DNA of 64,000 nucleotides, from NCBI GenBank assembly GCA_013378375.1, contig JACAFT010000002.1, forward strand, positions 13,802 through 77,801, given 5' to 3'. The stretch is from Nitrososphaerota archaeon (GTDB lineage Archaea > Thermoproteota > Nitrososphaeria > Nitrososphaerales > UBA57). Below are positions 2,209 through 58,289 of the stretch, piece by piece (within the stretch, counting starts at the first letter, position 1; each line of letters opens with the position of its first letter). Both the position numbers and the translations under genes were made by a program. A model generated the notes under the pieces. The model was given only the letters and a program-made list of their open reading frames with translations. It was not told the DNA's origin and ran no database searches.

Positions 2209-2284
2209 TCTAAAAATTATAATTAATTAAATTTTTATATATGTAAATATTGAATTTTATATTGATATTACTGGTGTATGAAAG

Positions 2285-10420: not shown

Positions 10421-11347
10421 TTGAATAATCCATTTTATAATCGTGATGTAGTTTCAATTAAGGATTTTCAACGTTCCGATCTAGAATATCTCTTTGATGT
10501 TGCAAATAAGCTTGAAACGGGAAAGCCATTGAATTCTCTTACTGGTAAGTTACTTGGTCTGATGTTTCTTGAACCAAGTACTCGAACAAGATTAAGTTTT
10601 GAATCTGCTATGAATTCATTAGGTGGAAAGTCGATTAGCTTTGGAGACCCTTCATCAACATCAACTGAAAAAGGTGAGAATCTTGCTGATAGTTTATCTA
10701 CTGTGGATCGATATGTTGATGCAATAGTTTTACGCCACTCTCGAGAAGGTGTTTCACGTTTTGCTTCTGAGATATGTCAAAAACCTGTCATTAATGCTGG
10801 GAGTGGAAGTGAGGAACATCCTACTCAAGCTATGTTAGATGTTTTTACTATCATGAAAGAATGTGGTAAAGTTGACGATCTTAATATTGCTATTTTTGGA
10901 GATTTAAAATATGGAAGAACTGTTTATTCTTTATTATATGCTTTGTCTAATTACAAACCTAATATTTTTCTTGTATCTCCTGCACTTCTACAACTCCGTA
11001 AAGATCCTTTAATTGATATTCAAGAAAATCTGAATATCTCACAACATGATAATATTTCTGATATAATTTCAAAACTTGATGTTATCTATACAACACGTAT
11101 ACAAAAAGAACGCTTTCCTGATCTTCAAGAATATGAAAGAGTGAAGGGTTCTTATAAAATTGACGAAGAGTTACTTGATCAAGCAAAAGAAAGTTTGATT
11201 CTTCTCCACCCAATGCCTAGATCTGAAGAAATTCCACCTAGTATAGATAAGACTAAATTTGCAAAGTATTTCCAACAAATGAGTTATGGGAAATTAATAA
11301 GATCTGCCTTATTACATCTTGTTTTTAATGAAAATCCTAGTTTCTAG
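10421..11347 (+). CDS. pyrB: Aspartate carbamoyltransferase catalytic subunit
   Basis: 308 aa, TTG start. STRTR carbamoyl-phosphate motif, HPTQ, HPMPR. Confidence 0.95.
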   Translation: MNNPFYNRDVVSIKDFQRSDLEYLFDVANKLETGKPLNSLTGKLLGLMFLEPSTRTRLSFESAMNSLGGKSISFGDPSSTSTEKGENLADSLSTVDRYVDAIVLRHSREGVSRFASEICQKPVINAGSGSEEHPTQAMLDVFTIMKECGKVDDLNIAIFGDLKYGRTVYSLLYALSNYKPNIFLVSPALLQLRKDPLIDIQENLNISQHDNISDIISKLDVIYTTRIQKERFPDLQEYERVKGSYKIDEELLDQAKESLILLHPMPRSEEIPPSIDKTKFAKYFQQMSYGKLIRSALLHLVFNENPSF

Positions 11348-13767
11348 CCACAGCTCGAGTATGAGCATGATAAACATTTACTACACCCTTCTGCATATAT
11401 CAAACTCATTTCTCCACAAGCCCCACATTTACTTTTATTGTGATTGATATCTTTTTCTGCTATATTGACCTCAATTTCTTCTTCTTTTTTTACATCTTGG
11501 ATTTCTATAGCTTTTTGTCCATTTTCTGTATGTATGGAATCTGCAAGTGCATGTGCTATTGCATCTGGTACAGATCTAATTGCTATACTGTTTCCTTTAG
11601 TTTGATGCCATGATACATTCCTTGTTTGTATTCCTCTCATTGTTTTAATTATTGAAGTTACATTAACATTTGATTGTAGTGCTATTGAAATCAATCTCCC
11701 CATTCCTTCATACGCTGCCTTTTCTTCATCTCCTGATTTTCCTCTTTCAATGAATACTTCTCTTGGTATTCCATTTTCATCTTTGTTGATTGTTATAAAT
11801 AATCCGCTGTTTGTATAGGTGAATCTATATGTTCTACCTTCTAGGTATTCTGGCCTTTTATATCCTCCAGATAAAACATGTAAACTTTCATTCTCGGATT
11901 TTGAACTACGTAGATTTTTTGTTTTATCTGTTTCTAAAACTTGTTCATCTAAACATCCATCTCTATATACTGTTATTCCTTTACAATGTGTTTTGTATGC
12001 TAATTTGTACGCATTGTTTACATCTTCTATTTTTGCTTCATTTGGTAAATTGATTGTTTTACTTACTCCATTATCTACAAATTCCTGAAATGCTGATTGC
12101 ATTTTTACATGTTGTTCTCCGGATAAATCTGCGGCAATTGGAAACATTTCTTTTATTTCATTTGGAATCCATGACAAGTTTTGAATACTTCCTCCGTTCT
12201 TTGATATTTCATTTATTTTTTCTCTATCTAATGCAATGTTTTTTTCTTCTAATGCTAAAGAAAATGATTCGTTTAAATAATGAAGTTCTTCAAATTCTTC
12301 ACTTCTTTCTTTGATCCTCGAATGTCTAACAAATACTAAAGCAAAATGTGGTTCTATTCCAGGTGAGCAATTGGCTATTGTACCAATTGAACCTGTTGGC
12401 GCAATAATTGTACAATTAACATTTCTGACTTTTTTATCAACTTTTGCAAAGTCACTTTTATCCCAATTTACAAATGTTCCCCTTGTTTCAGCTAATTCTT
12501 CTGACATTTTCCAAGATACTTCTGAAATAAATTTCATTAATTTTCTTGCTAATATATATGATTGTTCAGTTCCATATTTTATTTTTAATTTACTTAATAA
12601 ATCCGCAAAACCCATTACACCTAATCCTAATCTTCTCATATCTTGTGATAATTCTTGAATTTCTTTTGTCGGATATTTATTTGCAGTAACAACATTATCC
12701 AAGAAATGTATTGCATCTCGTGTACATTTTTTTAATTTATCCCAATCAATATCATCTTCTTTTTCATTTACGAATTTAGAAATATTTATTGAACCTAAAT
12801 TACAACTTTCATTAGGAAGTAATGGAACTTCACCACAAGGGTTGGTTGATTCAATTTTATAATGTTCTCTTAATGGATTTGAATTACTGTTATTTATTTT
12901 ATCAATAAATATTAAACCTGGATCTGCACATTCCCATGCACATTTTATAATTTTTTCCCATAGTTCTTTTGCTTTAATTCTTTTTGCTTCTCCTCCACAC
13001 AGTTTGCATTTTGGTATTGAGCTTATATCTACTTCTGGAAAAATATTTTTTGAACATTTATTACATTTTAAAACTTCGTTCCCTGTTCTTGGATTTATAA
13101 ATACATGATCATCATTGTTTTCTAATTCTCTCATAAATTCATCTGTTATTGCTACTGAAACATTAAATTCTTTCATTATTTTTGCTTCGCTTTGTAGATT
13201 CATATTATTTTTTTTCATTTCAATAAATTCTAATACATCTGGATGTTCGATATTTAATATTCCCATGTTTGCTCCTCGTCTTTTTCCTCCTTGTTTGATA
13301 ACTTGTGTACATTTATCAAATAATTGCATAAATGATACTGGTCCTGATGCTACTGAACCTGTTGAACCTACTTGGTCGCCCTCTGGTCTTAAGTTCGAAA
13401 ATGAAAAACCTGTACCTCCTCCTGTTTTTTGAACTATTGCTTGTGTCTTTACAGCATCTAATATGGAACTTGTGTTATCATTTACTGGTAGTACAAAACA
13501 TGCTGATAATTGACCTAAAGACGCACCGGCATTCATTAATGTTGGAGAATTTGGCAAAAATTCAAAATTTTTCATCATTTTATAAAATATTTCTTCTGTT
13601 TCTTCATGTTTAAAATCATTATATTCTTTGTCTGAATTTGCTATAGCTTTTGCAACTCTTCTAAACAAATCATCCGGATTTTCCTGCCTGCCATCTTCAA
13701 ATTTTAGCAAATATCTTGCCTTTAATACTTTCATTACATTTTCAGGTAAAGTTTCACTTATTTCCAA
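11344..13767 (-). CDS. nrdJ: Class II (adenosylcobalamin-dependent) ribonucleotide reductase, no ATP-cone, Cys-rich C-terminal Zn-finger tail
   Basis: 807 aa. TTG start with AAGGAG about 9 nt upstream. Blocks LPNSPTLMNAG, CFVLPV, NPCGE. Tail CGACGEMSLIYAEGCSKCLSCSYSSCG. Confidence 0.9.
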   Translation of the reverse strand: MEISETLPENVMKVLKARYLLKFEDGRQENPDDLFRRVAKAIANSDKEYNDFKHEETEEIFYKMMKNFEFLPNSPTLMNAGASLGQLSACFVLPVNDNTSSILDAVKTQAIVQKTGGGTGFSFSNLRPEGDQVGSTGSVASGPVSFMQLFDKCTQVIKQGGKRRGANMGILNIEHPDVLEFIEMKKNNMNLQSEAKIMKEFNVSVAITDEFMRELENNDDHVFINPRTGNEVLKCNKCSKNIFPEVDISSIPKCKLCGGEAKRIKAKELWEKIIKCAWECADPGLIFIDKINNSNSNPLREHYKIESTNPCGEVPLLPNESCNLGSINISKFVNEKEDDIDWDKLKKCTRDAIHFLDNVVTANKYPTKEIQELSQDMRRLGLGVMGFADLLSKLKIKYGTEQSYILARKLMKFISEVSWKMSEELAETRGTFVNWDKSDFAKVDKKVRNVNCTIIAPTGSIGTIANCSPGIEPHFALVFVRHSRIKERSEEFEELHYLNESFSLALEEKNIALDREKINEISKNGGSIQNLSWIPNEIKEMFPIAADLSGEQHVKMQSAFQEFVDNGVSKTINLPNEAKIEDVNNAYKLAYKTHCKGITVYRDGCLDEQVLETDKTKNLRSSKSENESLHVLSGGYKRPEYLEGRTYRFTYTNSGLFITINKDENGIPREVFIERGKSGDEEKAAYEGMGRLISIALQSNVNVTSIIKTMRGIQTRNVSWHQTKGNSIAIRSVPDAIAHALADSIHTENGQKAIEIQDVKKEEEIEVNIAEKDINHNKSKCGACGEMSLIYAEGCSKCLSCSYSSCG

Positions 13768-14101: not shown

Positions 14102-16189
14102 TTATCTTATTGGATATTCTTCTAATGAAGTTGAATTACAATTTTTACATTTATCGGTGTTATGAGTGTTTTTCACTGTACATGAAATACAAACTTTCAT
14201 TCTATTATAAAATTTGAAATATGAAATTTTATTGGACGTTTTTTTCGTAATTCCTATGAACTTCTTTGATGAAATATTGGATGTGTCCAAATAAATAGAA
14301 TATCCTCCTTCAAATTTATTTATATAATTGCTTATTTGATCTACTTTTTCAAGCTCATTAGGATTGATCGTGATAGATTGTGAATAGTAATTACTTTCTG
14401 ATTTCACTCTACTTTTCCCAAATTTCTCAATATCTATGTTTGTGAACCTCTCACTTGAGTCGTCTCGTATTGAGGATAATCCAAATTCTTCTCCTGTTTT
14501 TTTACTAAATTTTGCAATTTCTTCATTTGCTGTATCCAAAATTTTACCTGCTAACTTTGTTTTCTCTTTATTTGTTGATTCTGAGCCTAAAAGATTATTT
14601 ATTGCTTCATTTATTCCTGTTAAATTTATTATTAAAGGGATTTTCTGACTTGAAATAATTCCAATATTTGTATTTAAAAATGGTAATAATCCTTTTCCTG
14701 TTATATCGTCAATAATTGATCTTCTTTTTGAAAGAGTAGAAATTGCGATTTTTAACATTAAAGCTACTTTTGCGCGAAAATATGCTTCATCTTTATTTGA
14801 TTCATATGAAAGTTTTGGGAGATTGATTGCTACTTCGTGTAATGAAATATTTCCTCCTACTATTTTCTTATTTAGTGATTTACTAATTCCTGAAAATGCA
14901 AATATATTTTTTGAATTATTATTTATTCCAATAAATCCGCCATTTTTTACCGTCGATAAAATTTTTATAATTACTTCTTCTTCATTTTTTTGGAATTTAC
15001 ACGGAATTATTAATGCTATTTTGGGCATTGCAATAGAATCTAAATAAGTGTTATAACTTTCTAAAATAATTTTTTTAATCTTGATTAATTTTTTTTCATC
15101 AATTTTTGAATCTTTTGTTATGGATAGATCTAGTGTAATGAAAGGACTGTCTTTTTCAGATACTATTTGAGATATCATTTTGAACATTTGTACTATGCTA
15201 TCCTTTGCATCTGTTATTGTTTTATTATCAATTAGATCTGAAATATATCCTAAAAAATTATTATAGACTATTTCTTTATTGATTTCATTATTTAATTCAG
15301 ATGTTATTAATATTATATTTGTTAAACTATCAGTAAATTTTTTTGGTGTTGTTATATGTATTGAATTAAGTAATTTTCCTTGAATTTTAATTCCTTGTGC
15401 AGGTAATGAATATAAATCAATAAATATAGTATCTGGTTTTAATCCCCACGATCCTACATTTGCAATATTTATATCTCCAGAAAAATGTGCGTCAGTTACA
15501 TCTCTTGATAATTGATTTAATAGCAAGTATTCTGAAAATACTCTTTTTGATGTTTGTTTAATTAAAGAATTGATTGCATCTGTACTTCTGGAATATTGAT
15601 TAAACATTTGAGTTATGTCATGAATTGGTAATCCTATTCTTGTTAGTTTATGCCTGTATTCTTCATGTCCATGTTCAATTAATAAAGCGTTCACTATTTC
15701 TCTAATCAATGGTGCGGTTAGGTAACTTGTTTGAAATTTATGTACTCTAGCTTCTGCTTCACCTGTCATTTTCTCTGCCAATTCCATCGGCATACCTGCT
15801 TCTTTTACTAATACTTGTAATATTTTATCTGGTTTGAATTCTTCCATTGTTTCCCTTGATGTTCTAACATAAGTTTTTCCACTTTCTATTACACTTTGTT
15901 CTTCTATCTGTCTTGTTAGGTTAAGTATTAACCTTCCCAAATTTGTTACTACATAACGTCTTTCTGCACGGTTTAAACTAACGAGTTGCATTCTAACTAA
16001 TTTTCTTAAATGATATGCAAATTTTCCTGATTCTTTTTTTGATTTAAATCCTGCTAGTGTTTTTAATTCAGAATAACTTAATGGCCCTTTAGAGTTTAAT
16101 ATTTTTAAAATATCGAGCCTATTATCTGAAGCAATTACTGAATATATCGCCCTTACTCTTTTTGTTGTTCTGTAAGGTCCACTTGACAT
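14102..16189 (-). CDS. Multidomain protein: N-terminal ArsR-like winged HTH, then ATP-cone, then a large uncharacterised domain ending in a CxxC-x10-CxxC Zn ribbon (class III RNR-like layout without a glycyl-radical motif)
   Basis: 695 aa. wHTH: NRLDILKILNSKGPLSYSELKTLAG...FAYHLRKLVRMQLV. ATP-cone-like: YVRTSRETMEEFKPDKILQVLVKEAG...LIREIVNALLIEHGHEEYRHKLTRIG. C-terminus: CISCTVKNTHNTDKCKNCNSTSLEEYPIR. Confidence 0.7.
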   Translation of the reverse strand: MSSGPYRTTKRVRAIYSVIASDNRLDILKILNSKGPLSYSELKTLAGFKSKKESGKFAYHLRKLVRMQLVSLNRAERRYVVTNLGRLILNLTRQIEEQSVIESGKTYVRTSRETMEEFKPDKILQVLVKEAGMPMELAEKMTGEAEARVHKFQTSYLTAPLIREIVNALLIEHGHEEYRHKLTRIGLPIHDITQMFNQYSRSTDAINSLIKQTSKRVFSEYLLLNQLSRDVTDAHFSGDINIANVGSWGLKPDTIFIDLYSLPAQGIKIQGKLLNSIHITTPKKFTDSLTNIILITSELNNEINKEIVYNNFLGYISDLIDNKTITDAKDSIVQMFKMISQIVSEKDSPFITLDLSITKDSKIDEKKLIKIKKIILESYNTYLDSIAMPKIALIIPCKFQKNEEEVIIKILSTVKNGGFIGINNNSKNIFAFSGISKSLNKKIVGGNISLHEVAINLPKLSYESNKDEAYFRAKVALMLKIAISTLSKRRSIIDDITGKGLLPFLNTNIGIISSQKIPLIINLTGINEAINNLLGSESTNKEKTKLAGKILDTANEEIAKFSKKTGEEFGLSSIRDDSSERFTNIDIEKFGKSRVKSESNYYSQSITINPNELEKVDQISNYINKFEGGYSIYLDTSNISSKKFIGITKKTSNKISYFKFYNRMKVCISCTVKNTHNTDKCKNCNSTSLEEYPIR

Positions 16190-21864: not shown

Positions 21865-23148
21865 ATGTGGAAAATCGAAACTCCTTTAAAGAATTTAAAC
21901 GGTAAACTCTTCTTTGCAAATGTTAGTGCTAGTAAGCTTGCAAGTAAATTTGGCACTCCCGTATTTGTTACTGATTCTGAACGAATTATATATAATTATA
22001 ACAGACTTTATTCAGCTTTCTCTTCACATTATGATAAATTTAAAATTAATTATGCGGTGAAAGCTAATAATAATCTATCAATTCTTAAATTATTCAACTA
22101 TTTAGGCAGTGGCGCTGACTGTTCTTGCCCTGAAGAGATATTTCTTGCTAAAAAAATGGGTTTTTCAAGTAAAGATATTTTATATACTGGAAATTATAAT
22201 TCTAACGATCAACTTTCTTATGCACTAAAACAAAAAATCATTATTAATATTGATAGTTCATCGATTCTTCCAAGACTTCTTAAACTTGGAACTCCAAATT
22301 TTATTTCACTTCGAATCAATCCTGGAATTGGCGGTGGTTCACATAGTGGGTTAGTCTTTGGTGGAAAACATACAAAGTTTGGTATGAGTAGAAAAGATGC
22401 TATTCATGCTTACAATCTCGCAAAAAAATCTGGTGTAAAACAATTCGGTATACACATGATGACTGGTTCATCAATTCTTGATTCTTCATATTTTAAGAAA
22501 GCCACTAACAAATTAATTGATATTGCAGTAGAAATTGTAGAAGAATGTAAGATATCAATTGATTTTATTAATATTGGTGGTGGTTTTGGTATACCATATA
22601 AACCTCCAGAAAAGTCACTTGATATAAAGAAAGTCGGTTCAGATATCGGTAAAATTTTTAATGGAAAGAAATCTTCTAAAATTCTTAACAATCCTTGGTT
22701 GTTTGTTGAACCTGGTCGATATCTAGTGGCAGATTCTACTATTCTATTAACTAATGTTCATTCAATAAAATCTGGTCCTGAGAAATATGTTGGTATTGAT
22801 GCAGGAATGAATACATTACTTCGACCAGCATTGTATGGTGCTTATCATCATATTGTTAATGCTAGTCGACTTAATTCTCGTAACAAAGAAGTTGTAAATA
22901 TCTGTGGACAAATTTGCGAAAATACTGATATTCTTGCTAAAAATAGAAAACTTGGTAATATAAAAGAAGGTGATTTATTGGCAATTCTTAATGTTGGTGC
23001 ATATGGTTTTTCAATGAGTTCACAATATAATACCCGTCCACGAGCTGCAGAAGTAATGATTAGTAAAAAAAACTGTAAAATAATCAGACAAAGAGAAACT
23101 ATAAATGATTTAATAAATGGACAAAAAGTTGTTGCGTGGTTTAAATGA
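21865..23148 (+). CDS. lysA: Diaminopimelate decarboxylase
   Basis: 427 aa. PLP lysine context INYAVKAN. Also GGGFGIPY and EPGRYLVA motifs. Confidence 0.9.
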   Translation: MWKIETPLKNLNGKLFFANVSASKLASKFGTPVFVTDSERIIYNYNRLYSAFSSHYDKFKINYAVKANNNLSILKLFNYLGSGADCSCPEEIFLAKKMGFSSKDILYTGNYNSNDQLSYALKQKIIINIDSSSILPRLLKLGTPNFISLRINPGIGGGSHSGLVFGGKHTKFGMSRKDAIHAYNLAKKSGVKQFGIHMMTGSSILDSSYFKKATNKLIDIAVEIVEECKISIDFINIGGGFGIPYKPPEKSLDIKKVGSDIGKIFNGKKSSKILNNPWLFVEPGRYLVADSTILLTNVHSIKSGPEKYVGIDAGMNTLLRPALYGAYHHIVNASRLNSRNKEVVNICGQICENTDILAKNRKLGNIKEGDLLAILNVGAYGFSMSSQYNTRPRAAEVMISKKNCKIIRQRETINDLINGQKVVAWFK

Positions 23149-24305
23149 AAATTTCTTCTCGATTAAATGCTCTTCCTCCTTATCCTTTTGCAAAGCTTGA
23201 AAATCTAATCTCTCAAAAACGCCAAGAAGGAATTGATCTGATAAGTTTTGGTATTGGAGATCCTGATTTAACTACTCCTGATTTTGTAAATCAAGCTTTA
23301 ATTGACGGTCTTTCTATTCCTGGTAATCATAATTATTCATCCAGTGCAGGTGAAAAGTCATTCCGAGATAGTATATCTGTGTGGTTTGAAAAACGATTCA
23401 ATGTATCTCTTAATCCTGATAAAGAAATATGTGCATTGATTGGCTCTAAAGAAGGACTTGCTCATATTTTTCGTGCATTTTTAAATTCTGACGAAACAAT
23501 TGCTGTGCCTAATCCCGGTTATCCACTTTATGAACATGGAGGTACTATGTTAAACGGCTTTAAACCATTAATTCTTGATTTATCTGAAGAATATAATTAC
23601 ATTCCACAAACTAATCAATTACAAGAATCTAATTTTTCTGGTATTTATTTAAACTATCCTAACAATCCTACTGGAGCTGTCATTCAACAGTCCGAACTTA
23701 ATAATATAGTTAATATTTGCAATGAAAAAGATTCTATAATAGTTTATGATAATGCATATTCGGAAATCACTTATGGAGATTATAAAGCTCCTTCTATCAT
23801 GCAATGTACAAATGCCAATCAAAATAGTATAGAATTTCATTCTCTCTCCAAGACTTTCAACATGACTGGTTATAGAATTGGTTTTGCTGTGGGTAATGAG
23901 TTTCTCATTGACGGTCTTAAAAAAATAAAAAATCAAATTGATTCTGGTTCACCAAAATTCATACAATATGCAGCTACAACTGCACTTGATAGTTATTCTA
24001 ATGGAGTTCCTCCTAAAGAAATTCTTGATAATATAAAAATCTATGAAACCCGAATGTCTCTTCTTTATAATGGCTTGTCAAAGCTTGGATATGATGTAAA
24101 AATGCCTTCTGGTACATTTTATTTATGGATGAAAATTAATGAAGATTGTGAAAGTTTTGCAATGAAATTATTGGATAAAGGAATAGTTGTTACTCCTGGT
24201 TCAGGATTTGGAAACGCTGGATCTAATTATGTCCGATTCTCGCTCACAGTTTCAGAATCTGATATTTCTCGCGCATTGGAAAAATTTCCTGAGAATTCGA
24301 AATAA
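23145..24305 (+). CDS. Class I/II PLP aminotransferase, probably the LL-diaminopimelate aminotransferase of this operon
   Basis: 386 aa. NYPNNPTG and SLSKTFNMTGYRIG motifs. The assignment to DapL rests on operon context only. Confidence 0.65.
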   Translation: MKISSRLNALPPYPFAKLENLISQKRQEGIDLISFGIGDPDLTTPDFVNQALIDGLSIPGNHNYSSSAGEKSFRDSISVWFEKRFNVSLNPDKEICALIGSKEGLAHIFRAFLNSDETIAVPNPGYPLYEHGGTMLNGFKPLILDLSEEYNYIPQTNQLQESNFSGIYLNYPNNPTGAVIQQSELNNIVNICNEKDSIIVYDNAYSEITYGDYKAPSIMQCTNANQNSIEFHSLSKTFNMTGYRIGFAVGNEFLIDGLKKIKNQIDSGSPKFIQYAATTALDSYSNGVPPKEILDNIKIYETRMSLLYNGLSKLGYDVKMPSGTFYLWMKINEDCESFAMKLLDKGIVVTPGSGFGNAGSNYVRFSLTVSESDISRALEKFPENSK

Positions 24306-24320
24306 ATAATATGCGTCGGT

Positions 24321-24335
24321 TATAACTGGTGTTAT
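24321..24335. promoter_or_regulatory. 15-bp palindromic motif TATAACTGGTGTTAT (ATAAC-N4-GTTAT), copy 1, upstream of ferredoxin and the DUF59 gene
   Basis: Identical 15-mer recurs at 52114-52128 upstream of sufC. Read directly from the sequence. Confidence 0.4.
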
Positions 24336-24435
24336 TATATACAAGTTCGTAAATATGTATAATATTTCTGTTTTATACCGTCTTCAGGCGACATATCTTA
24401 TATATTAACCATAACCCTTTTTTACTTTTGATTGT

Positions 24436-24882
24436 GTGAAATGTACTATGCCTATTGATCAAGAATTCTATAAATCGTTAAAACCTGTGGCACGTTCCGA
24501 ACATGGTTATCTTATCTGGGGGCCTGGTAAGGATGGTGCTGCTGCCGAAAGTGACGAAGTTAAATCTGCTTATGAAGCAGCTGGCGAAAAATTTGAACCA
24601 TTAGGTGTTCATGGTACGTATGTAGCTGTTGATTTTGACGATTGTGTTGCAGATGGTGCATGTCTGCCTGCTTGTCCAGTCAGTGTTTTTGAATGGACTA
24701 AAAATCCTGGTTACAGTGGTACTGAAGAAAAACTTGATTTAACTGATAAAGCTGCTCCAGTTCGTGAATCTGATTGTATTTGGTGTATGGCTTGTGTTAC
24801 TGTATGTCCTACAGAAGCAGTCAAAGTTGACGAATCATTAGTTTCTGTAGCAGAAAATGCCGAAAGTAGTCTTGATGAATAA
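24436..24882 (+). CDS. Sulfolobus-type zinc-containing dicluster (7Fe) ferredoxin
   Basis: 148 aa. The start may be GTG 24436 or ATG 24448. LGVHGTYVAVDFDDCVADGACLPACPVSVFEW and CIWCMACVTVCPTEA parallel the Sulfolobus Zn-ferredoxin. Confidence 0.85.
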   Translation: MKCTMPIDQEFYKSLKPVARSEHGYLIWGPGKDGAAAESDEVKSAYEAAGEKFEPLGVHGTYVAVDFDDCVADGACLPACPVSVFEWTKNPGYSGTEEKLDLTDKAAPVRESDCIWCMACVTVCPTEAVKVDESLVSVAENAESSLDE

Positions 24883-24896
24883 TCAGGTCAGTTTAA

Positions 24897-25208
24897 ATGT
24901 CACAAACCTTTTCTGAAGAAGATATTTTAGAAGCCGTATCTGAGGTAGTAGATCCAGAAATTAATGTACCTATTTTAGAAATGGGTGAACCAAACGGACT
25001 TGTAGACGAGGTTGTTATTGGTACTGATAATTCTATAGAACTAAAATATCATGCTACAACTCCTTATTGCCCTCCAGTTTTTGCTTTACAAATATCTATG
25101 GATATAAAACGAAGTATTGAAAAAATGGAAAATATTGGACCTGTTACAGTAATTGTTTCAGGACATTCTATGTCTAAACAAATTAATGATAAAATAAATG
25201 AAAAATAA
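24897..25208 (+). CDS. DUF59/MIP18-family (SufT-like) Fe-S assembly protein
   Basis: 103 aa. VVDPEINVPILEMG motif and conserved Cys context TTPYCP. Confidence 0.7.
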   Translation: MSQTFSEEDILEAVSEVVDPEINVPILEMGEPNGLVDEVVIGTDNSIELKYHATTPYCPPVFALQISMDIKRSIEKMENIGPVTVIVSGHSMSKQINDKINEK

Positions 25209-25211
25209 ATA

Positions 25212-25511
25212 TTAAGGCATGTATACTTTTTCGTATATTCCTGCATTAAATGACAAACATTCTTGATGTATCCAACCTGCTTTGATTACTTTTCCCTTAC
25301 TAATTCCTTCATTCCAGTAAGTTCTTCTACCACCTTCTACTTGTTGTCTAGTGATTATTTTATCACACATTACACAAATTACTAAATTTTTAATATCTTC
25401 TTTCTCATGCTCATCTATTTGATTTCTTTTTGAAGGAACTTTTATTACCCCGTCTAATTCATCCAACCATCTTCTTGATTCTGGTTCCCAACGTCTGACT
25501 GGTAATTTCAA
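25212..25511 (-). CDS. Hypothetical protein with a possible CxxC...HxxC metal site
   Basis: 99 aa. VICVMCDKI...WIHQECLSF. No family recognised. Confidence 0.4.
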   Translation of the reverse strand: MKLPVRRWEPESRRWLDELDGVIKVPSKRNQIDEHEKEDIKNLVICVMCDKIITRQQVEGGRRTYWNEGISKGKVIKAGWIHQECLSFNAGIYEKVYMP

Positions 25512-37377: not shown

Positions 37378-38325
37378 TTGAAAAAAGATGAATTAGGTTC
37401 CGTAGTTAACGACGATAGAGCTATTGGTAATAAAGTTCAAAGTTGTCAGAGATGTGGCAAGGGTCCTATAGTTGTTGATTCTTCTGGCGGAGAAATGACT
37501 TGTAGTCATTGTGGTTTTGTTATAGTTGATAAAATTGAAGAAGAAGGTCCTGAATGGCGTGCATTTTCTAAAGAAGAAAAAGATGATAGATCTAGGACTG
37601 GTGTTCCGTCTTCATTAGCTATGCATGATATGGGTTTAGCTACTGTTATTGGTGCAGAAGATCGTGATGCTGCTGGACGTTCATTGCCCGCATCTATGAA
37701 AGCTGCCATTGAAAGATTACGTACCTGGGATGGAAGAAGTCAAGTTCATGAACCTGTTGATAGAAATCTTCGACAAGCTTTTAGTGAATTAGATCGATTG
37801 GCTGATAAATTAAATCTTAGTGATGCAGTTATTGAGAAAGCTGCATATGTGTATAGAAAGGCACTTGAAAAAGGGTTGGTTCGAGGACGTTCTATTTCTG
37901 CATTAATTGCCGCATCATTATATGCTGCTTGTCGTGACACTGAAACTCCTAGAACTTTAAAAGATGTTGCTGCCGCTTGTAATATTAAGAAAAAAGATAT
38001 TGCTCGTTGTTATAGATTACTTTTACGAGAAATGGATCTTCGGATGCCTGTTGTTGATCCTACTAAATGTGTTTCTCGAATTGCCAGTAAAGCTGGTTTA
38101 TCTGAAAAAACAAAACGTAGTGCGTTATTAATTTTAAAGAAAGCCGAGGATACTAGGACTTCTGCTGGTAAAGATCCTATGGGTCTTGCTGCTGCTGCTT
38201 TATACGTTGCTTGCGTAATGGAGGGTGAAAATAAAACTCAGAAAGACGTTGCGGAGGCTGCTGGAGTAACTGAAGTTACTATTCGTAACCGTTATAAAGG
38301 CTTGAAATCAGCATTACAGCTCTAG
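37378..38325 (+). CDS. tfb: Transcription initiation factor B (TFB)
   Basis: 315 aa, TTG start. Zn ribbon CQRCG...CSHCG, B-reader, two cyclin folds. Noticeably less AT-rich than its neighbours. Confidence 0.95.
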   Translation: MKKDELGSVVNDDRAIGNKVQSCQRCGKGPIVVDSSGGEMTCSHCGFVIVDKIEEEGPEWRAFSKEEKDDRSRTGVPSSLAMHDMGLATVIGAEDRDAAGRSLPASMKAAIERLRTWDGRSQVHEPVDRNLRQAFSELDRLADKLNLSDAVIEKAAYVYRKALEKGLVRGRSISALIAASLYAACRDTETPRTLKDVAAACNIKKKDIARCYRLLLREMDLRMPVVDPTKCVSRIASKAGLSEKTKRSALLILKKAEDTRTSAGKDPMGLAAAALYVACVMEGENKTQKDVAEAAGVTEVTIRNRYKGLKSALQL

Positions 38326-39955: not shown

Positions 39956-40273
39956 TTATTGTACCTCTATTGAAGATTCATTAAATCCTAGATCTACTAG
40001 GTGAGATTTTAATACATCTCTATGATCTCCTTGAAGTATTACTAATTTTCCCTTTCCAGATCCGCCACACGCTAATATATTTTTTAATTTTTTGGTTATT
40101 TCTATTATATCTGTACTCTTTGATTCTAAACCCTCTATAATCGTTGTTGGCTTTTTGAATCTTCTCATTTCTAATCTTACAATAATTCTCGAATCATCTT
40201 TTTCAAGTTCTTGACAGACACATAAATCCGTCGGTAACCCACATTTATTACATACTTCCATGATTTGACACAA
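39956..40273 (-). CDS. sui1: Translation initiation factor SUI1/aIF1
   Basis: 105 aa; may start at the internal MEVCNKCG. N-terminal Zn knuckle, then the SUI1 fold RRFKKPTTIIEGL...ACGGSGKGKLVILQGDHR. Confidence 0.85.
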   Translation of the reverse strand: MCQIMEVCNKCGLPTDLCVCQELEKDDSRIIVRLEMRRFKKPTTIIEGLESKSTDIIEITKKLKNILACGGSGKGKLVILQGDHRDVLKSHLVDLGFNESSIEVQ

Positions 40274-40440
40274 CTTGATAATAATTACTATTTATTTTAG
40301 ATAATTGATATTTTAACAGTGTTAATTCTCTTCTCCGATTCCTCAGGTTACAAGAAGTCTTTACGTCATAGATAAGTATTGTTATTCAATATAAACGCCA
40401 AAAAATTATATATAGTGGTATAACTCATTATTTTGAACAC

Positions 40441-40706: not shown

Positions 40707-41426
40707 ATGATACTTATTATGCTTGGATCTTACTTTCTATTTTCAGAATATAAGTTAATTGAAGGTTTGTTGTATCTTATCGGTTCTTTTATTGGATATC
40801 GAGTTTTTCGAATAGCACGAGAAGGTTATAGGGATACACGTAGCCCTACTATGCTTAGACTTACTATTTCTTTTATTGCACTTACAATTGGATTCTTTAT
40901 GACTGCCTTTACCTACATCTTTCCTATATTTACACAACTCACTTTCAACTCCAATTTTCTATTTAATTTTCGTTTTGAATTATTAGGAATATCAATTGCA
41001 TTAACTTCTTTGTTTTTTATAATTGCGGCATCATTTGAACTCTTGGGTTATTTTATTCTGGCATTGGGGCATGGTATTAAATCATATCAAAGATCTGCTT
41101 TAGTTCCTGCTGCATTTGGCTTTTTAACTACCGTATCTGTTTTATCTATTTTGAAATCAATTTCTTTCGTTTTTCTTCTTTACGGGGCATTTGAAACCTT
41201 TTTATCATATTTAGAAGCAAAAAAACGTCCTATTTTGTATATGTTTCTTGGTTTTGCTATGTTGTCTATAGGTGAATTTATAAGGTGGTTAGCATTATTT
41301 TACTCAGGTTTAACTCCGTTAATGATATCTTCTATTTTAGTCAAATTAATTGGATTCATAATGCTTTATACCCCAGTAAGTAAATATAACTCGTTAAAAG
41401 GAATTAATCAAAATGTCGACATATAG
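40707..41426 (+). CDS. Seven-helix membrane protein, unknown function
   Basis: 239 aa. About 7 hydrophobic segments by eye. The 3' end overlaps the following wHTH gene by 14 nt. Confidence 0.5.
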   Translation: MILIMLGSYFLFSEYKLIEGLLYLIGSFIGYRVFRIAREGYRDTRSPTMLRLTISFIALTIGFFMTAFTYIFPIFTQLTFNSNFLFNFRFELLGISIALTSLFFIIAASFELLGYFILALGHGIKSYQRSALVPAAFGFLTTVSVLSILKSISFVFLLYGAFETFLSYLEAKKRPILYMFLGFAMLSIGEFIRWLALFYSGLTPLMISSILVKLIGFIMLYTPVSKYNSLKGINQNVDI

Positions 41427-50992: not shown

Positions 50993-52042
50993 TTAATTTA
51001 TTTTACACAAATCTTCTGGGTTATCGTTTGAATATGTACAAGTAAAGCAATTATTCTTTGATTCATTTAATCTCGTGTCGAATTCTTTTTCTGAATATAC
51101 TCCAAATTTGCTGTAAATGCTCTTGTATTTTGCTGCATTATCTCCAAATAACAGTACTATTTTTCCTTCTAATTCACCTATGGTTTTGTTTAATGTTGCT
51201 AAAACCGAACCTGTTGACGGACCTGCAAATAAATTCTCGGTTACCAATAATTTCTTTATCATCTCAAAAGATTCTTTATCGGTCACTGTAATTTTTTCAT
51301 CAATAACATTTATTCTTCTTTTTAATAGCTCTGGTTTTTCCGATTCTTCTAGGTTTCTAAGACCTTGTATGTTGTGGTTCTTTTGTGGTTCTGCTGCAAT
51401 TATTTTGATATTCTGATTTTTCTCTTTTAGAAATGTACCTACTCCAGTAATTGTTCCGCCTGTTCCAATTCCAGTAATGAATGCTCCTACTTCTCCGTTG
51501 GTTGCTTTCCAGATTTCTGGACCAGTTCCGTAATAATGAGATCTAAAATTTGCATCATTATTGTATTGATCTGGAGAATAATATTCATCTGGATGATTTT
51601 TTATCAATGCTGAAGCCAACGCTATTGCTTGATCAGTTCCAGGTCCAACTCTTGGACACAAATCATCTTCCGTCTCCAACAGTTTTGCGCCGTTTGTTTT
51701 TAGAATGTCCTTTGTTTCATCACTCATTCTTTCTGGTACTGCTAATTCTATTTTATACCCAAGTGATTTTGCGAAATGACTTAAAGCAACTCCAGTATTT
51801 CCTGAAGTTGGTTCGATAACTGTTGTTTTATCTCTAATTAAATTTCCTTGTTCTTTACCTTCGTTTAACATCCATGCTGCAGGTCTTGCTTTTACTGATC
51901 CAGATGGATTACACCATTCGATTTTTGCATATATTTCTTTTTCTTTATCAAACAACTTGTCTAATTTAACGAGAGGTGTTTTTCCTACACTGTTTACAAT
52001 ATCTTCTATATTCTCAATTTCAGGTGGATGTTGAGTTTGCAA
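50993..52042 (-). CDS. PLP-dependent cysteine synthase family enzyme (CysK/CysM/O-phosphoserine sulfhydrylase) with a Cys-containing C-terminal extension
   Basis: 349 aa, TTG start. PLP-lysine context NPSGSVKARPA, EPTSGNTG, GIGTGGTITG. Confidence 0.8.
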   Translation of the reverse strand: MQTQHPPEIENIEDIVNSVGKTPLVKLDKLFDKEKEIYAKIEWCNPSGSVKARPAAWMLNEGKEQGNLIRDKTTVIEPTSGNTGVALSHFAKSLGYKIELAVPERMSDETKDILKTNGAKLLETEDDLCPRVGPGTDQAIALASALIKNHPDEYYSPDQYNNDANFRSHYYGTGPEIWKATNGEVGAFITGIGTGGTITGVGTFLKEKNQNIKIIAAEPQKNHNIQGLRNLEESEKPELLKRRINVIDEKITVTDKESFEMIKKLLVTENLFAGPSTGSVLATLNKTIGELEGKIVLLFGDNAAKYKSIYSKFGVYSEKEFDTRLNESKNNCFTCTYSNDNPEDLCKIN

Positions 52043-52113
52043 TATTTTCCGATTATTAAGCCGTTATATATTTATATAAGTTATTCTATGGAAAAAATAC
52101 TTTGATTGTTTGA

Positions 52114-52128
52114 TATAACTGGTGTTAT
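52114..52128. promoter_or_regulatory. 15-bp palindromic motif TATAACTGGTGTTAT, copy 2, in the divergent cysteine-synthase / sufC promoter region
   Basis: Identical to 24321-24335. Lies just upstream of a TATA-like AAATATATTTTA (52135-52146), which sits about 20-30 nt before the sufC ATG. Confidence 0.4.
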
Positions 52129-52165
52129 ACACTTAAATATATTTTAATGTAATTGATAACGAATT

Positions 52166-52921
52166 ATGAAAAACACTCTTGAAATTATTGATTTGCATGT
52201 TTCTGTTGAATCGAAACCAATTCTTAAAGGTGTAAATCTGACTGTTAACAAAGGAGAAACACATGCTATAATGGGGCCTAATGGTTCTGGTAAAAGTACT
52301 TTGGCGAATACTTTGATGGGACACCCGAAGTATATTGTTGATCAAGGTGATATATTGCTTGATGGGGAAAGTGTATCTAAGCTTTCGCCTGATAAAAGAG
52401 CAAAAAAGGGTTTGTTTCTTGCCTTTCAATATCCTCATGAAGTATCTGGAGTTAGTGTTTTTAATTTTTTACGTTCGTCATTAAACTCTTTAGACCTGCA
52501 AAATAATAGCAAGCCTATGTCTATAATTGCTTTCAGAAAGTATCTACGTGAACGAATGGAAGTTCTTAATGTAGAAGAAAGTTTTGTTAAGAGATATTTG
52601 AACGAAGGTTTTTCTGGCGGTGAAAAGAAAAAGAGTGAAATACTACAAATGGCTGTTTTGAAACCAAAAATTGCTATACTTGACGAAACAGATTCTGGTC
52701 TGGATATTGATGCATTAAAAACTGTTTCCGACGCTGTAAATAAAATGACAGGTCCTGATCTGGGAATATTGATGATTACTCATTATCAAAGAATTCTAAA
52801 ATATGTCCAACCCGGATTTGTTCATGTTTTAATGGATGGAAAAGTTGTAAAATCTGGTTCAATCGAATTAGCACAAACATTAGAAAACAAAGGCTATGAT
52901 TGGATTCGTGAATCTCTCTAA
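52166..52921 (+). CDS. sufC: Fe-S cluster assembly ATPase SufC
   Basis: 251 aa. Walker A GPNGSGKST, signature FSGGEKKK, Walker B ILDETDSGLD. Confidence 0.9.
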   Translation: MKNTLEIIDLHVSVESKPILKGVNLTVNKGETHAIMGPNGSGKSTLANTLMGHPKYIVDQGDILLDGESVSKLSPDKRAKKGLFLAFQYPHEVSGVSVFNFLRSSLNSLDLQNNSKPMSIIAFRKYLRERMEVLNVEESFVKRYLNEGFSGGEKKKSEILQMAVLKPKIAILDETDSGLDIDALKTVSDAVNKMTGPDLGILMITHYQRILKYVQPGFVHVLMDGKVVKSGSIELAQTLENKGYDWIRESL

Positions 52922-54150
52922 TGAGCGGTAACATACTTCGAGATATTAAAAACGATTTTCCTATATTCTCAAGGCAAATTAATGGAAAAAATCTTGTTTA
53001 TCTTGATAGTGCTGCTACCACTCAAAAACCTAATGCGGTCATCGACTCGATTATTAATTATTATAAGAATTGTAACTCCAATATTCATCGTGGAATATAT
53101 TCAATTAGTATTGAAGCAACTGAGCTTTATGAAAATGCTCGTGCTAATATTGGTAAATTCATAAATGCTAACTCGTCTCATGAACTTGTCTTTACACGTA
53201 ATGCAACTGAAGCTATAAATCTAGTTGCTAATACCTGGGCATCTCAGAATCTGAAGGAAGGCGACTCTATAATATTAACCGAGATGGAACATCATAGTAA
53301 TCTTGTACCTTGGCAAATTCTTGCTGAAAAACTGAAACTTAAACTCAATTTTATTGAAATTCAACCTGATGGAGAACTAATTCTTGATAAATTGGATGAT
53401 TTATTCCAAGACAATGCAAAATTTCTTTCACTTACTCATGTATCTAATGTCTTGGGAACAATTAATCCAATTAAGGATATAATATCAAAAGCCCACTCTC
53501 AAGGAATTACTACTCTTATAGATGCTGCACAATCAGTTCCTCATATGTCTGTTGACGTTCAAGATTTAGACAGTGATTTCTTTGTCTTTTCAGGACATAA
53601 AATGTTGGGTCCATCTGGTATAGGTGTTTTACATGCAAAGGAACCATTACTTGAAAATATGAATCCGTTTCTTTATGGCGGTGATATGATTTCGAGTGTT
53701 AGTTTACGAGAAGCCCAATGGAATGAAATACCTTGGAAATTTGAAGCGGGGACACCAAATATTGTTGGCGCTATAGGTTTGGGCAAAGCCGTAGATTATC
53801 TTAATCAAATTGGAATGGAAGTTGTCCACAAACACGAACAAGAATTATATAATTATGCTATTGATAAATTCTCTGAATTAAAAGATTTCAAAATATTTGG
53901 GTTAGAAAACAAACACTCTACCGGAGGTGTTATATCGTTTTCATATTCTGATTTTCATCCTCATGACATTGCATCAATTCTTGATGGTGAATCTATAGCT
54001 GTCCGTGCTGGTCATCATTGTGCACAACCTCTTATGGAAAAGCTAGGTGTTCCTGCTACTACTAGAGCTAGTTTTTATATTTATAATAATCAATCAGATA
54101 TTGATAAATTATTTAATGGTTTACAAAAAGTAAGAAGTGTATTGACTTAA
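52921..54150 (+). CDS. sufS: Cysteine desulfurase SufS (group II)
   Basis: 409 aa, TAATG overlap with sufC. PLP-Lys context SGHKMLGPSG; catalytic Cys context RAGHHCAQP. Confidence 0.9.
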   Translation: MSGNILRDIKNDFPIFSRQINGKNLVYLDSAATTQKPNAVIDSIINYYKNCNSNIHRGIYSISIEATELYENARANIGKFINANSSHELVFTRNATEAINLVANTWASQNLKEGDSIILTEMEHHSNLVPWQILAEKLKLKLNFIEIQPDGELILDKLDDLFQDNAKFLSLTHVSNVLGTINPIKDIISKAHSQGITTLIDAAQSVPHMSVDVQDLDSDFFVFSGHKMLGPSGIGVLHAKEPLLENMNPFLYGGDMISSVSLREAQWNEIPWKFEAGTPNIVGAIGLGKAVDYLNQIGMEVVHKHEQELYNYAIDKFSELKDFKIFGLENKHSTGGVISFSYSDFHPHDIASILDGESIAVRAGHHCAQPLMEKLGVPATTRASFYIYNNQSDIDKLFNGLQKVRSVLT

Positions 54151-54560
54151 TGAGCGAAGATATTTACAAAGAAATTATTCTTGATCACTATAGAAATCCT
54201 AGGAATAAAGGTAACATCAACGATGCTGAAATTTCAGCAAAAGATTACAATCCTGTATGCGGTGATAAGTTGACTCTTGATATTAAACTCGAAAATGACG
54301 TCGTTTCTGATATAAAGTTTGATGGAGAGGGATGTGCAATAAGTCAAGCATCTGCCTCAATACTTACTGAAATGCTAATGGGTAAAACTCTTGAAGATTT
54401 ATCAAAATTCTCAAAAGACGCTCTATTGGAAGAATTAGGAACTCCTTCTCTCGGCCCTGCACGAATAAAATGCGCTCTTTTATCTCTCAAAGTTCTCAAG
54501 ATTGGAACTTACAAATATCTTGGAGATGAATTACCAAAGGACTCTGCTGATGAGTTATAA
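54150..54560 (+). CDS. sufU: SufU/IscU-type sulfur acceptor / scaffold
   Basis: 136 aa, TAATG overlap with sufS. DHYRNPRN, NPVCGD, GEGCAIS and RIKCALL motifs. Confidence 0.85.
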   Translation: MSEDIYKEIILDHYRNPRNKGNINDAEISAKDYNPVCGDKLTLDIKLENDVVSDIKFDGEGCAISQASASILTEMLMGKTLEDLSKFSKDALLEELGTPSLGPARIKCALLSLKVLKIGTYKYLGDELPKDSADEL

Positions 54561-58200: not shown

Positions 58201-58289
58201 TAGATTAGATTTGTTATACTTACTATTATCTTGTTTTCAATATCTTATCAGATTAAAAAATTTTAATATCATTTCTTTTCACTATTATT

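What the first reader, a model, noticed from the sequence alone, without database searches (positions are those of the whole stretch)
24321..24335. Identical 15-bp palindrome TATAACTGGTGTTAT upstream of two Fe-S-related transcription units (copy 1: ferredoxin + DUF59)
The 15-mer at 24321-24335 is repeated exactly at 52114-52128, and it is an inverted repeat (ATAAC-TGGT-GTTAT). Copy 1 lies in the 130-nt spacer before the Zn-ferredoxin and the DUF59/SufT-like gene. Copy 2 lies in the divergent promoter region of cysteine synthase and sufC-sufS-sufU. An exact 15-nt match between two short intergenic regions is unlikely by chance. The shared functional theme (Fe-S cluster supply and use, cysteine as the sulfur donor) suggests a dimeric regulator operator. 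This would be analogous in role to IscR/SufR boxes, but such a regulon is not described for this lineage as far as I know. A much weaker relative (TATTACTGGTGTATG, 2266-2280) lies between mrp/apbC and atpE.
Basis: seen in the sequence. Interest (0 to 1): 0.6.

Follow-up and report, generated by a model that had tools for sequence, protein, structure and literature searches.

The report
Conserved operator before archaeal Fe-S genes
A 14-base palindrome (ATAAC-N4-GTTAT) sits just before the promoters of the iron-sulfur cluster assembly genes and a ferredoxin operon in a group of tiny-genome deep-sea archaea; it stays unchanged while the surrounding DNA diverges, so it is very probably the docking site of a still unidentified regulator protein.

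Summary
TATAACTGGTGTTAT occurs exactly at 24321-24335 and 52114-52128. Copy 1 lies before a zinc-ferredoxin-like gene plus a DUF59/SufT-like gene. Copy 2 lies between a cysteine-synthase-like gene and sufC-sufS-sufU.

The window holds about 33 exact repeats of 15 bases or more, and a 15-mer shared by two spacers arises in 23% of simulations. The dyad ATAAC-N4-GTTAT is rare, though: 2 found against 0.14 expected.

Conservation settles it. The window comes from the heterotrophic marine Thaumarchaeota (HMT). All nine distinct orthologous sufC promoters examined carry ATAAC-N4-GTTAT, down to 67-69% SufC identity and 41-47% GC. The arms never change, the four central bases vary, and the flanks diverge. 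A TATA-like box follows 2-5 nt later and the start codon 32-43 nt later. Two other HMT species have the site before ferredoxin; one subclade lacks it. Across 192 fetched loci, every exact match lies in one of these spacers.

The "weak third copy" at 2266-2280 is the atpE Shine-Dalgarno sequence.

Best reading: the operator of an unidentified dimeric transcription factor that overlaps the sufC BRE and most likely represses. The factor and its signal are unknown. It is a new member of a known kind, of moderate interest.

The parts
52115..52128 (.). Operator copy 2: ATAAC-TGGT-GTTAT (the 15-mer spans 52114-52128). It lies 37 nt before the sufC ATG and 73 nt before the cysK-like TTG start.
   Evidence: The dyad is invariant at the same position in all orthologous sufC promoters.
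24322..24335 (.). Operator copy 1: ATAAC-TGGT-GTTAT (the 15-mer spans 24321-24335). It lies 112 nt before the ferredoxin ATG and is directly followed by TATATACA.
   Evidence: The same dyad sits 61-62 nt before ferredoxin in L081/L161-169 (ATAACTGCTGTTAT) and in L175/176 (ATAACGGCAGTTAT); it is absent in L170-174.
52132..52140 (+). Predicted sufC TATA box, CTTAAATAT, starting 4 nt after the palindrome. The proximal arm therefore overlaps the BRE position.
   Evidence: Inferred from sequence. The same box (CTTAAATAT, TTTAAAT or CTTTATAT) follows 2-5 nt after the dyad in all relatives. TATA-like boxes in this window typically start 29-36 nt before start codons. No transcription-start data exist.
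52166..54560 (+). The sufC (52166-52921), sufS (52921-54150) and sufU (54150-54560) operon, the deeply conserved target.
   Evidence: Pfam. NCBIfam: TIGR01978, TIGR01979 and TIGR01994 all score above their cut-offs.
50993..52042 (-). Cysteine-synthase-family (PALP) gene, divergent from sufC. It is a possible co-target.
   Evidence: The divergent arrangement is conserved in all relatives. In L007 a second full dyad lies 27-40 nt before the cysK ATG.
52060..52069 (.). GCCGTTATAT block, invariant among HMT on the cysK side. It reads ATATAACGGC on the cysK strand, at the position of the cysK TATA box. It may be a half-site remnant or simply the TATA box.
   Evidence: Alignment A1. It is not conserved in that form in L184/L187, so its status is unresolved.
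24448..25208 (+). Zinc-ferredoxin-like gene (24448-24882) and DUF59/SufT-like gene (24897-25208), a lineage-variable target.
   Evidence: Pfam. NCBIfam: best hits NF041165 and TIGR02945, both below their cut-offs.
24408..24429 (+). Ferredoxin-proximal conserved block ACCATAACCCTTTTTTACTTTT, at the usual TATA position (-40 to -19). Site-less lineages have TTTTATTAATTATT there instead.
   Evidence: Reading it as a weak core promoter is inference.
2266..2280 (+). Not a member of the family. GGTG here is the Shine-Dalgarno sequence of atpE (TTG start at 2285).
   Evidence: The orthologous spacers keep ACAGGTGAT(G) 5-7 nt before the atpE ATG and have no ATAAC/GTTAT arms. The 16S 3' end of this species is GGATCACCTCCT.

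Best explanation
ATAAC-N4-GTTAT is a sequence-specific protein-binding operator for a still unidentified homodimeric transcription factor. A refined consensus is (T)ATAAC[A/T]-NN-[T/A]GTTAT(A). The factor belongs to the heterotrophic marine Thaumarchaeota and their non-ammonia-oxidising relatives.

At its ancestral target, the sufC-sufS-sufU promoter, the site sits at a fixed place. The TATA box starts 2-5 nt downstream of it, so its proximal arm overlaps the BRE, and the start codon follows 32-43 nt later. A bound dimer would compete with TFB and TBP. I therefore take repression of sufCSU as the most likely mode, relieved when demand for Fe-S clusters, cysteine or iron rises.

In some HMT species, including the window's, a second copy upstream of the ferredoxin-DUF59 operon brings the main Fe-S client and a SufT-like maturation factor under the same factor.

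Shown: the sites exist, they are conserved with invariant arms and a variable centre, and they hold a fixed geometry relative to a TATA-like box. Inferred: protein binding, dimer, repression, and the nature of the signal.
For: 1. Rarity: 2 exact dyads in the window against 0.14 expected.
2. Phylogenetic footprint at sufC. The window, L001-L006 (SufC 82-83% identical), L007 (67%), L184-186 (68%, 41% GC) and L187/188 (69%, 46-47% GC) all carry the dyad. The centres differ (TGGT, AGAT, AGGT, ACAT, AATT, CATG, TATT) and the flanks diverge.
3. Geometry: the gap from dyad to start codon is 32-43 nt, and the TATA-like box starts 2-5 nt after the dyad in every lineage.
4. Ferredoxin spacers of two further species carry it with other centres (TGCT, GGCA). 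In the window it sits at a non-homologous distance.
5. The Langseth MAG contig has both sites (L003 and L161).
6. Specificity: every exact match in the 192 loci is in a cysK-sufC or ferredoxin spacer. About 250 kb of clade sequence shows no other copy.
7. The arms are invariant rather than covarying, and the hairpins are marginal at -1.4 to -4 kcal/mol, no better than shuffles. This points to base-specific protein recognition, not structure.
8. In L007 a second full dyad lies 27-40 nt before the cysK ATG, over or just downstream of its TATA region. Only a repressor fits that position.
Against: - No regulator gene is adjacent in any locus, so the binding protein is unknown.
- There are no transcription-start or expression data for this uncultured lineage. 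TATA and BRE positions are predictions.
- A site just upstream of the TATA box can also activate in archaea (from my own knowledge of Ptr2, TrmBL1 and SurR).
- The ferredoxin sites lie 61-112 nt before the ATG, which does not fit simple occlusion of the proximal promoter.
- One HMT subclade lacks the ferredoxin site.
- Mrp/ApbC, another Fe-S gene, has no site.
- Whole genomes could not be scanned, so the regulon is known only from roughly 6-25% of a genome.
Confidence: 0.8

Rival explanations
1. Specialised core-promoter element. The dyad is an extended BRE or upstream element read by one of several TFB/TBP paralogues, defining a promoter class, rather than the site of a separate regulator.
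For: The proximal arm overlaps the BRE position at a fixed 2-5 nt from the TATA box in all sufC promoters. A TFB gene lies in the window (37378-38325). From my own knowledge, Thaumarchaeota carry several TFB paralogues.
Against: Both arms are equally invariant, including the distal arm about 10-14 bp beyond the BRE, and the element is a true dyad. TFB-BRE contacts are asymmetric. The ferredoxin copies are not at a fixed distance from the start codon, at 61-62 versus 112 nt. In L007 a copy lies at or after the cysK TATA region.
Confidence: 0.08
2. Same operator, different logic. It belongs to a cysteine or sulfur-metabolism regulator (functionally CymR- or CysB-like) rather than an Fe-S-cluster or iron sensor. 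Alternatively it is a dual-mode factor that represses sufCSU and activates ferredoxin.
For: The site always sits in the cysK<->sufS spacer, that is, between cysteine synthesis and cysteine desulfuration. L007 has a dedicated cysK copy. Ferredoxin promoters with the site have a degenerate TATA (CTTTTTTAC), whereas site-less lineages have TTTTATTAAT. This suits dependence on an activator.
Against: Ferredoxin plus a DUF59/SufT-like gene is an Fe-S target rather than a sulfur target. The cysS promoter has no dyad. Nothing here bears on the effector.
Confidence: 0.3
3. RNA or DNA hairpin, for example a terminator of the upstream aminotransferase gene at copy 1, or a 5' leader structure.
For: Copy 1 lies 16 nt after a stop codon. 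A consensus scan calls a wobble-rich terminator-like hairpin at 24313-24332 followed by a T-rich run.
Against: The hairpins are marginal and no better than shuffles. The arms are invariant rather than covarying. At sufC the dyad is upstream of the TATA box of either divergent gene, so it is probably not transcribed. The extended stem at copy 1 is absent from L081 and L175. There is no Rfam match.
Confidence: 0.03
4. Chance repeat or dispersed repeat family with no function.
For: Exact 15-mers recur about 33 times in this AT-rich window. A 15-mer shared by two spacers arises in 23% of simulations.
Against: The dyad is conserved across lineages at 67-83% SufC identity and at 31-47% GC, at a fixed promoter position. 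The flanks of the two copies are unrelated. There are only two copies in 64 kb and none elsewhere in about 250 kb of clade DNA.
Confidence: 0.02

Closest known systems
SufR operators of cyanobacteria and actinobacteria (a [4Fe-4S] repressor of the suf operon; motif recalled from memory as CAAC-N6-GTTG)
   Same: A short palindrome with an AAC...GTT core in the promoter or divergent spacer of the suf operon. It is presumed to be the operator of a dimeric repressor that tunes Fe-S assembly to demand.
   Different: The spacing is N4 rather than N6 and the flanking bases differ. The promoter is an archaeal BRE/TATA promoter. No sufR-like or any HTH gene lies next to the operon. The operon is sufC-sufS-sufU without sufB or sufD. 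The regulator family is unknown.
IscR (Rrf2 family) regulon of proteobacteria
   Same: One factor controlling both the Fe-S biogenesis machinery and genes for Fe-S proteins. The role is analogous.
   Different: IscR type 1 and type 2 sites are about 25-bp motifs unrelated in sequence (from memory). No Rrf2 gene was seen in the DNA available, and binding is untested.
Archaeal dyad operators next to BRE/TATA: SurR (GTT-N3-AAC, Thermococcales) and TrmBL1 (TATCAC-N5-GTGATA)
   Same: A short dyad placed at a fixed distance from the BRE/TATA of an archaeal promoter. Position (upstream, overlapping or downstream) is expected to decide between activation and repression. SurR is a redox and sulfur-responsive factor.
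   Different: The half-site sequence, orientation and spacing differ. The lineage is Thaumarchaeota. Relation to these protein families is not shown.
Gram-positive LexA (Cheo) box GAAC-N4-GTTC
   Same: Identical architecture, AAC-N4-GTT. This shows that a winged-helix dimer can read this geometry (motif seen in the papers listed).
   Different: The flanking bases are TA/TA rather than G/C. The downstream genes are Fe-S and cysteine genes, not SOS genes. From my own knowledge, LexA is not expected in archaea.

Membership tests
Transcription-factor operator (generic archaeal dyad site) | Dyad symmetry with sequence-invariant half-sites and a free centre. | tested here: met
   12 distinct sites. 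Arms ATAAC/GTTAT are invariant and the central 4 nt vary. The sites were found by an exact-arm search, but every orthologous sufC promoter had one.
Transcription-factor operator (generic archaeal dyad site) | Conserved in orthologous promoters while the flanks diverge (phylogenetic footprint). | tested here: met
   A1 alignment. Relatives at 67-69% SufC identity and 41-47% GC keep the dyad.
Transcription-factor operator (generic archaeal dyad site) | Fixed position relative to the core promoter (BRE/TATA/TSS). | tested here: inconclusive
   The TATA-like box starts 2-5 nt downstream and the start codon lies 32-43 nt away in all sufC promoters. However, TATA and TSS are predicted, not mapped, and the ferredoxin sites sit at 61-112 nt.
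Transcription-factor operator (generic archaeal dyad site) | A protein binds it and changes transcription. | not testable with these tools
   The lineage is uncultured and no candidate has been identified.
SufR operator | CAAC-N6-GTTG type palindrome (from memory). | tested here: not met
   The motif is ATAAC-N4-GTTAT in all 12 sites.
SufR operator | sufR gene in or next to the suf operon. | tested here: not met
   No HTH or COG2345-like gene lies within 5-8 kb of sufC in the window or in L001-L007 and L184-L188.
SufR operator | Located in the suf promoter region. | tested here: met
IscR box | A type 1 or type 2 IscR motif of about 25 bp, plus an Rrf2 regulator. | tested here: not met
   The 14-bp dyad has no resemblance to that motif. 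No Rrf2 domain occurs among the window proteins scanned. The rest of the genome was not available.
Dispersed repeat / mobile element | Many copies with similar flanks, no positional link to genes. | tested here: not met
   Two copies in the window, unrelated flanks, and all copies in 192 loci lie at two promoter types.
Shine-Dalgarno sequence (third site, 2266-2280) | Complementary to the 16S rRNA 3' end, 5-10 nt before a start codon, and conserved as such. | tested here: met
   GGTG lies 11 nt before the TTG at 2285. Orthologues have AGGTGAT 5-7 nt before the atpE ATG. The 16S 3' end is GGATCACCTCCT.

The most novel reading that the evidence does not exclude
This is the operator of the first dedicated Fe-S-homeostasis regulator described in Archaea. 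It would be a dual-mode factor, conserved across the non-ammonia-oxidising marine Thaumarchaeota. It would repress sufCSU (and cysK) by occupying the BRE/TATA. In some HMT species it would activate the ferredoxin-SufT operon from an upstream site that compensates for a degenerate TATA box, so coupling Fe-S supply to the main Fe-S client in a genome of about 1 Mb with very few regulators.
Probability: 0.2. Interest if true: 0.65.

Novelty: new member of a known kind. Interest (0 to 1): 0.45.

Why it matters
As far as my literature searches show, no dedicated transcriptional control of Fe-S cluster biogenesis has been described in Archaea. Nothing is known about regulation in the uncultured heterotrophic marine Thaumarchaeota, whose genomes of about 0.8-1 Mb (PMC7300363) retain few regulators.

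A 14-bp dyad that is invariant over deep divergence gives three things:
- A concrete DNA bait to fish out the regulator.
- A marker for reconstructing its regulon in MAGs.
- A testable prediction for deep-ocean metatranscriptomes: co-variation of sufCSU, cysK and ferredoxin/DUF59 transcripts with iron or redox status.

It remains a predicted operator of a familiar type, not a new kind of mechanism.

Tried and rejected
1. The third "weak" site at 2266-2280. I fetched mrp<->atpE spacers from four relatives (Mrp 74-79% identical). None has ATAAC/GTTAT arms, even allowing one mismatch across about 21 kb each. The conserved core is AGGTGAT before the atpE ATG, complementary to the 16S 3' end. I rejected it as an operator, so Mrp/ApbC is not a detectable target.
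2. One-mismatch sites in the window match chance: 8 found against 5 expected. Only 40372-40385 (ATAAGTATTGTTAT) is intergenic among them; with two mismatches allowed, 58204-58217 is intergenic as well. The first lies in the SUI1 / Sso10a-like wHTH operon spacer. Every confirmed site has perfect arms, and conservation could not be tested because the look-ups were exhausted. I treated it as probably chance.
3. Regulator hunt. The window encodes a TFB (37378-38325), an Sso10a-family wHTH (41413-41700) and an HTH fused to an NrdD-like protein. None is linked to the sites. The conserved 99-aa CxxC...HxxC protein beside ferredoxin-DUF59 has no Pfam, NCBIfam or PDB match. No candidate emerged.
4. RNA explanations. 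Rfam found nothing credible and the hairpins are no better than shuffles.
5. Other spacings (N0-N8) and everted repeats of the arms gave nothing relevant.
6. Literature search for the motif string returned only LexA-type GAAC-N4-GTTC boxes.
7. The HMT paper's supplement lists ArsR-type and other regulators across Thaumarchaeota but gives no way to tie one to this motif.
8. A possible half-site on the cysK side (GCCGTTATAT) and one before ferredoxin (CATAAC). They are conserved within HMT but not in position or orientation in deeper relatives. I left them unresolved.

Full report
**1. Observation**

The 15-mer TATAACTGGTGTTAT is present exactly at 24321-24335 and 52114-52128, on the same strand. 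It contains the dyad ATAAC-TGGT-GTTAT.

- Copy 1 lies between the end of a lysine-biosynthesis cluster (LL-DAP-aminotransferase-like gene, 23145-24305) and a zinc-ferredoxin-like gene (24448-24882). That gene is followed by a DUF59/SUF-associated gene (24897-25208).
- Copy 2 lies in the 123-nt divergent spacer between a cysteine-synthase-family gene (50993-52042, minus strand) and sufC-sufS-sufU (52166-54560).
- Gene identities come from Pfam and NCBIfam. SufC, SufS and SufU score above the curated cut-offs. The cysteine synthase, ferredoxin and DUF59 genes are best hits below cut-off.

**2. Is it more than chance?**

- The 32%-GC window contains about 33 distinct exact repeats of 15 bases or more.
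- In simulations of its 5.4 kb of spacers, a 15-mer shared by two spacers turns up in 23% of runs.
- Three things are unusual. The shared word is a 5-4-5 inverted repeat (P about 0.005 for a random 15-mer). ATAAC-N4-GTTAT occurs twice against 0.14 expected. Both copies precede functionally linked genes.
- The flanks of the two copies are unrelated, so this is not a duplicated segment or a mobile element.

**3. Lineage**

- SufC relatives at 82-83% identity are marine Thaumarchaeota MAGs. They include ASW8 and HMT_ATL, which Aylward and Santoro assign to the heterotrophic marine Thaumarchaeota with genomes of about 0.8-1 Mb (PMC7300363).
- Flanking loci are full of PQQ dehydrogenases, a hallmark of that group.
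- The window's exact proteins occur on many marine metagenome contigs and in assembly GCA_002693165.1.

**4. Conservation at sufC (the decisive test)**

Every orthologous sufC promoter I could fetch has ATAAC-N4-GTTAT at the same place.

| Locus | SufC identity | GC | Central 4 nt |
|---|---|---|---|
| window | 100% | 32% | TGGT |
| L001, L004, L006 | 82-83% | 33-35% | AGAT, ACAT, ACAT |
| L002, L003, L005 | 82-83% | 33-34% | AGGT |
| L007 | 67% | 31% | AATT (plus a second site, TGTT) |
| L184-186 | 68% | 41-42% | CATG |
| L187/188 | 69% | 46-47% | TATT |

- All share the synteny purM-...-cysK<->sufC-sufS-sufU-beta-CASP.
- In the alignment of the HMT spacers, the invariant blocks are the dyad, a TATA-like box just after it, the start codon, and a block on the cysK side (A1).
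- Over 12 distinct sites the arms never change. The inner flanking positions prefer A/T...T/A, which gives a 6-2-6 consensus ATAAC[A/T]NN[T/A]GTTAT. The centre is free.
- The gap from dyad to start codon is 32-43 nt. CTTAAATAT, TTTAAAT or CTTTATAT starts 2-5 nt after the dyad.
- Other genes in this window have TATA-like boxes starting about 29-36 nt before their start codons, which implies leaderless or short-leader mRNAs. The dyad therefore spans roughly -48 to -35, and its proximal arm overlaps the BRE position. This is a prediction; there are no transcription-start data.

**5. Conservation at ferredoxin**

- One species (ferredoxin 94% identical; L081, L161-169) has AATAACTGCTGTTATA 61 nt before the ATG.
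- A second species (88%; L175/176) has AATAACGGCAGTTATA at 62 nt.
- The window has the site at 112 nt, in a spacer that is otherwise not alignable upstream of the proximal promoter.
- A third HMT subclade (87-89%; L170-174) has no site. Nor do more distant ferredoxin loci.
- L003 (sufC) and L161 (ferredoxin) are pieces of the same 75,253-bp contig of the Langseth MAG. A second genome therefore carries the dyad at both promoters, with different centres (AGGT and TGCT).
- It follows that the identity of the whole 15-mer in the window is partly incidental. The constrained unit is the two arms.
- Site-bearing ferredoxin promoters have CTTTTTTACTTTT at the usual TATA position. Site-less lineages have TTTTATTAATTATT there.

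**6. Specificity**

- Across all 192 loci fetched, every exact match lies in a cysK-sufC or ferredoxin spacer. These loci include 760 kb around SufC homologues from bacteria and other archaea.
- About 250 kb of sequence from the clade contains no other copy.

**7. The third site**

- Orthologous mrp<->atpE spacers (Mrp 74-79% identical) have no ATAAC/GTTAT arms.
- What is conserved there is ACAGGTGAT(G), 5-7 nt before the atpE ATG.
- The 16S rRNA of this species ends in GGATCACCTCCT.
- The site at 2266-2280 is therefore a Shine-Dalgarno sequence, and Mrp/ApbC is not a detectable target.

**8. What it is not**

- Hairpins formed by the dyad are marginal (-1.4 to -4 kcal/mol, no better than shuffles).
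- The arms are invariant rather than covarying.
- There is no Rfam match.
- At sufC the dyad lies upstream of both divergent TATA boxes.
- A terminator-like call at copy 1 depends on wobble pairs that relatives lack.
- These points argue against an RNA or DNA structural element and for base-specific protein recognition.

**9. Mechanism**

The best-supported reading is an operator for a homodimeric transcription factor.

- Overlap with the BRE at sufC points to repression by exclusion of TFB/TBP.
- So does the second full dyad in L007, which lies 27-40 nt before the cysK ATG, over or just after its TATA region.
- Activation from a site abutting the BRE is known in archaea (my own knowledge of Ptr2, TrmBL1 and SurR) and cannot be excluded.
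- The ferredoxin copies sit 61-112 nt before the ATG. Either they abut an upstream promoter (TATATACA follows directly in the window), or they act as upstream activating sites for a weakened proximal promoter.
- The second option would make the factor dual-mode. That would be biologically sensible (more assembly machinery and less client when clusters are scarce), but it is speculative.
- The effector is not addressed by any data here. It could be an Fe-S cluster, iron, cysteine or O-acetylserine, or redox state.

**10. The regulator**

- No HTH gene lies beside the suf or ferredoxin operons in any lineage.
- The window's DNA-binding proteins have no link to the sites. They are a TFB, an Sso10a-family wHTH, and an HTH fused to an NrdD-like protein.
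- The regulator's identity remains open.

**11. Comparison and novelty**

- In role it resembles the SufR and IscR systems. In promoter logic it resembles archaeal SurR and TrmBL1 sites. In architecture it matches the LexA Cheo box (AAC-N4-GTT).
- It fails the sequence and gene-neighbourhood criteria for SufR and IscR membership.
- Literature searches found no archaeal suf-specific regulator and no report of this motif.
- I rate it a new member of a known kind: a well-supported, previously undescribed operator and mini-regulon in an uncultured archaeal lineage, of moderate interest.

Noticed in passing
window 60008-60022 and 60041-60055: AAAGCACTATTTATA occurs twice, 33 nt apart, in the spacer upstream of cysteinyl-tRNA synthetase (58588-59991, minus strand). 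On the cysS strand it reads TATAAATAGTGCTTT. It looks like a duplicated TATA box plus downstream element (tandem promoters or a repeated operator).
   Followed up: no
window 14102-16189 (-): A 695-aa protein combining an N-terminal winged-helix (HTH_20/DUF7347), an ATP-cone and an anaerobic-RNR-like (NRDD) domain. This is an odd fusion for an oxic-ocean archaeon that also has a class II-like RNR (11344-13767).
   Followed up: no
window 25212-25511 (-); also L161 3787-4086, L172 3881-4180, L173 3403-3738, L175 1079-1375: A 99-aa protein conserved tail-to-tail with ferredoxin-DUF59 in all HMT loci. It has an invariant CxxC...WIHQEC motif (Cys46, Cys49, His82, Cys85), which suggests a zinc-knuckle or PHD-like fold. 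It has no Pfam, NCBIfam or PDB match.
   Followed up: partly
window 52166-54560 and L001-L007, L184-L188: The SUF operon here is sufC-sufS-sufU with no sufB or sufD alongside. The closest SufC homologues outside this clade include bacterial ones (Chloroflexi, Bacilli, up to about 63% identity) as well as other archaea (about 60%). This hints at an unusual or laterally acquired SUF arrangement.
   Followed up: no
window 40372-40385: ATAAGTATTGTTAT (one arm mismatch) lies in the divergent spacer between SUI1 (39956-40273, minus strand) and an operon of two membrane proteins plus an Sso10a-family wHTH protein (41413-41700). It could be a degenerate site or chance. Conservation was not tested.
   Followed up: no
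window 5097-5146: A 24-nt tandem repeat (GGTTCTGGTACAGG...) inside the cupredoxin/plastocyanin-like gene 4754-5275 (minus strand), probably encoding a repeated Gly/Ser/Thr-rich linker.
   Followed up: no
L189 15431-20132 (same species, just beyond the window's right end): The 16S-23S rRNA operon follows the shikimate/chorismate gene cluster. The 16S 3' end GGATCACCTCCT shows that this lineage can use Shine-Dalgarno pairing (for example at atpE), although many genes look leaderless.
   Followed up: partly
window 24408-24429; L081 and L175 equivalents: The ferredoxin-proximal block ACCATAAC[C/G/T]CTTTTTTACTTTT is conserved only in lineages that also carry the upstream dyad. Site-less lineages have a canonical A/T-rich TATA there.
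   Followed up: partly
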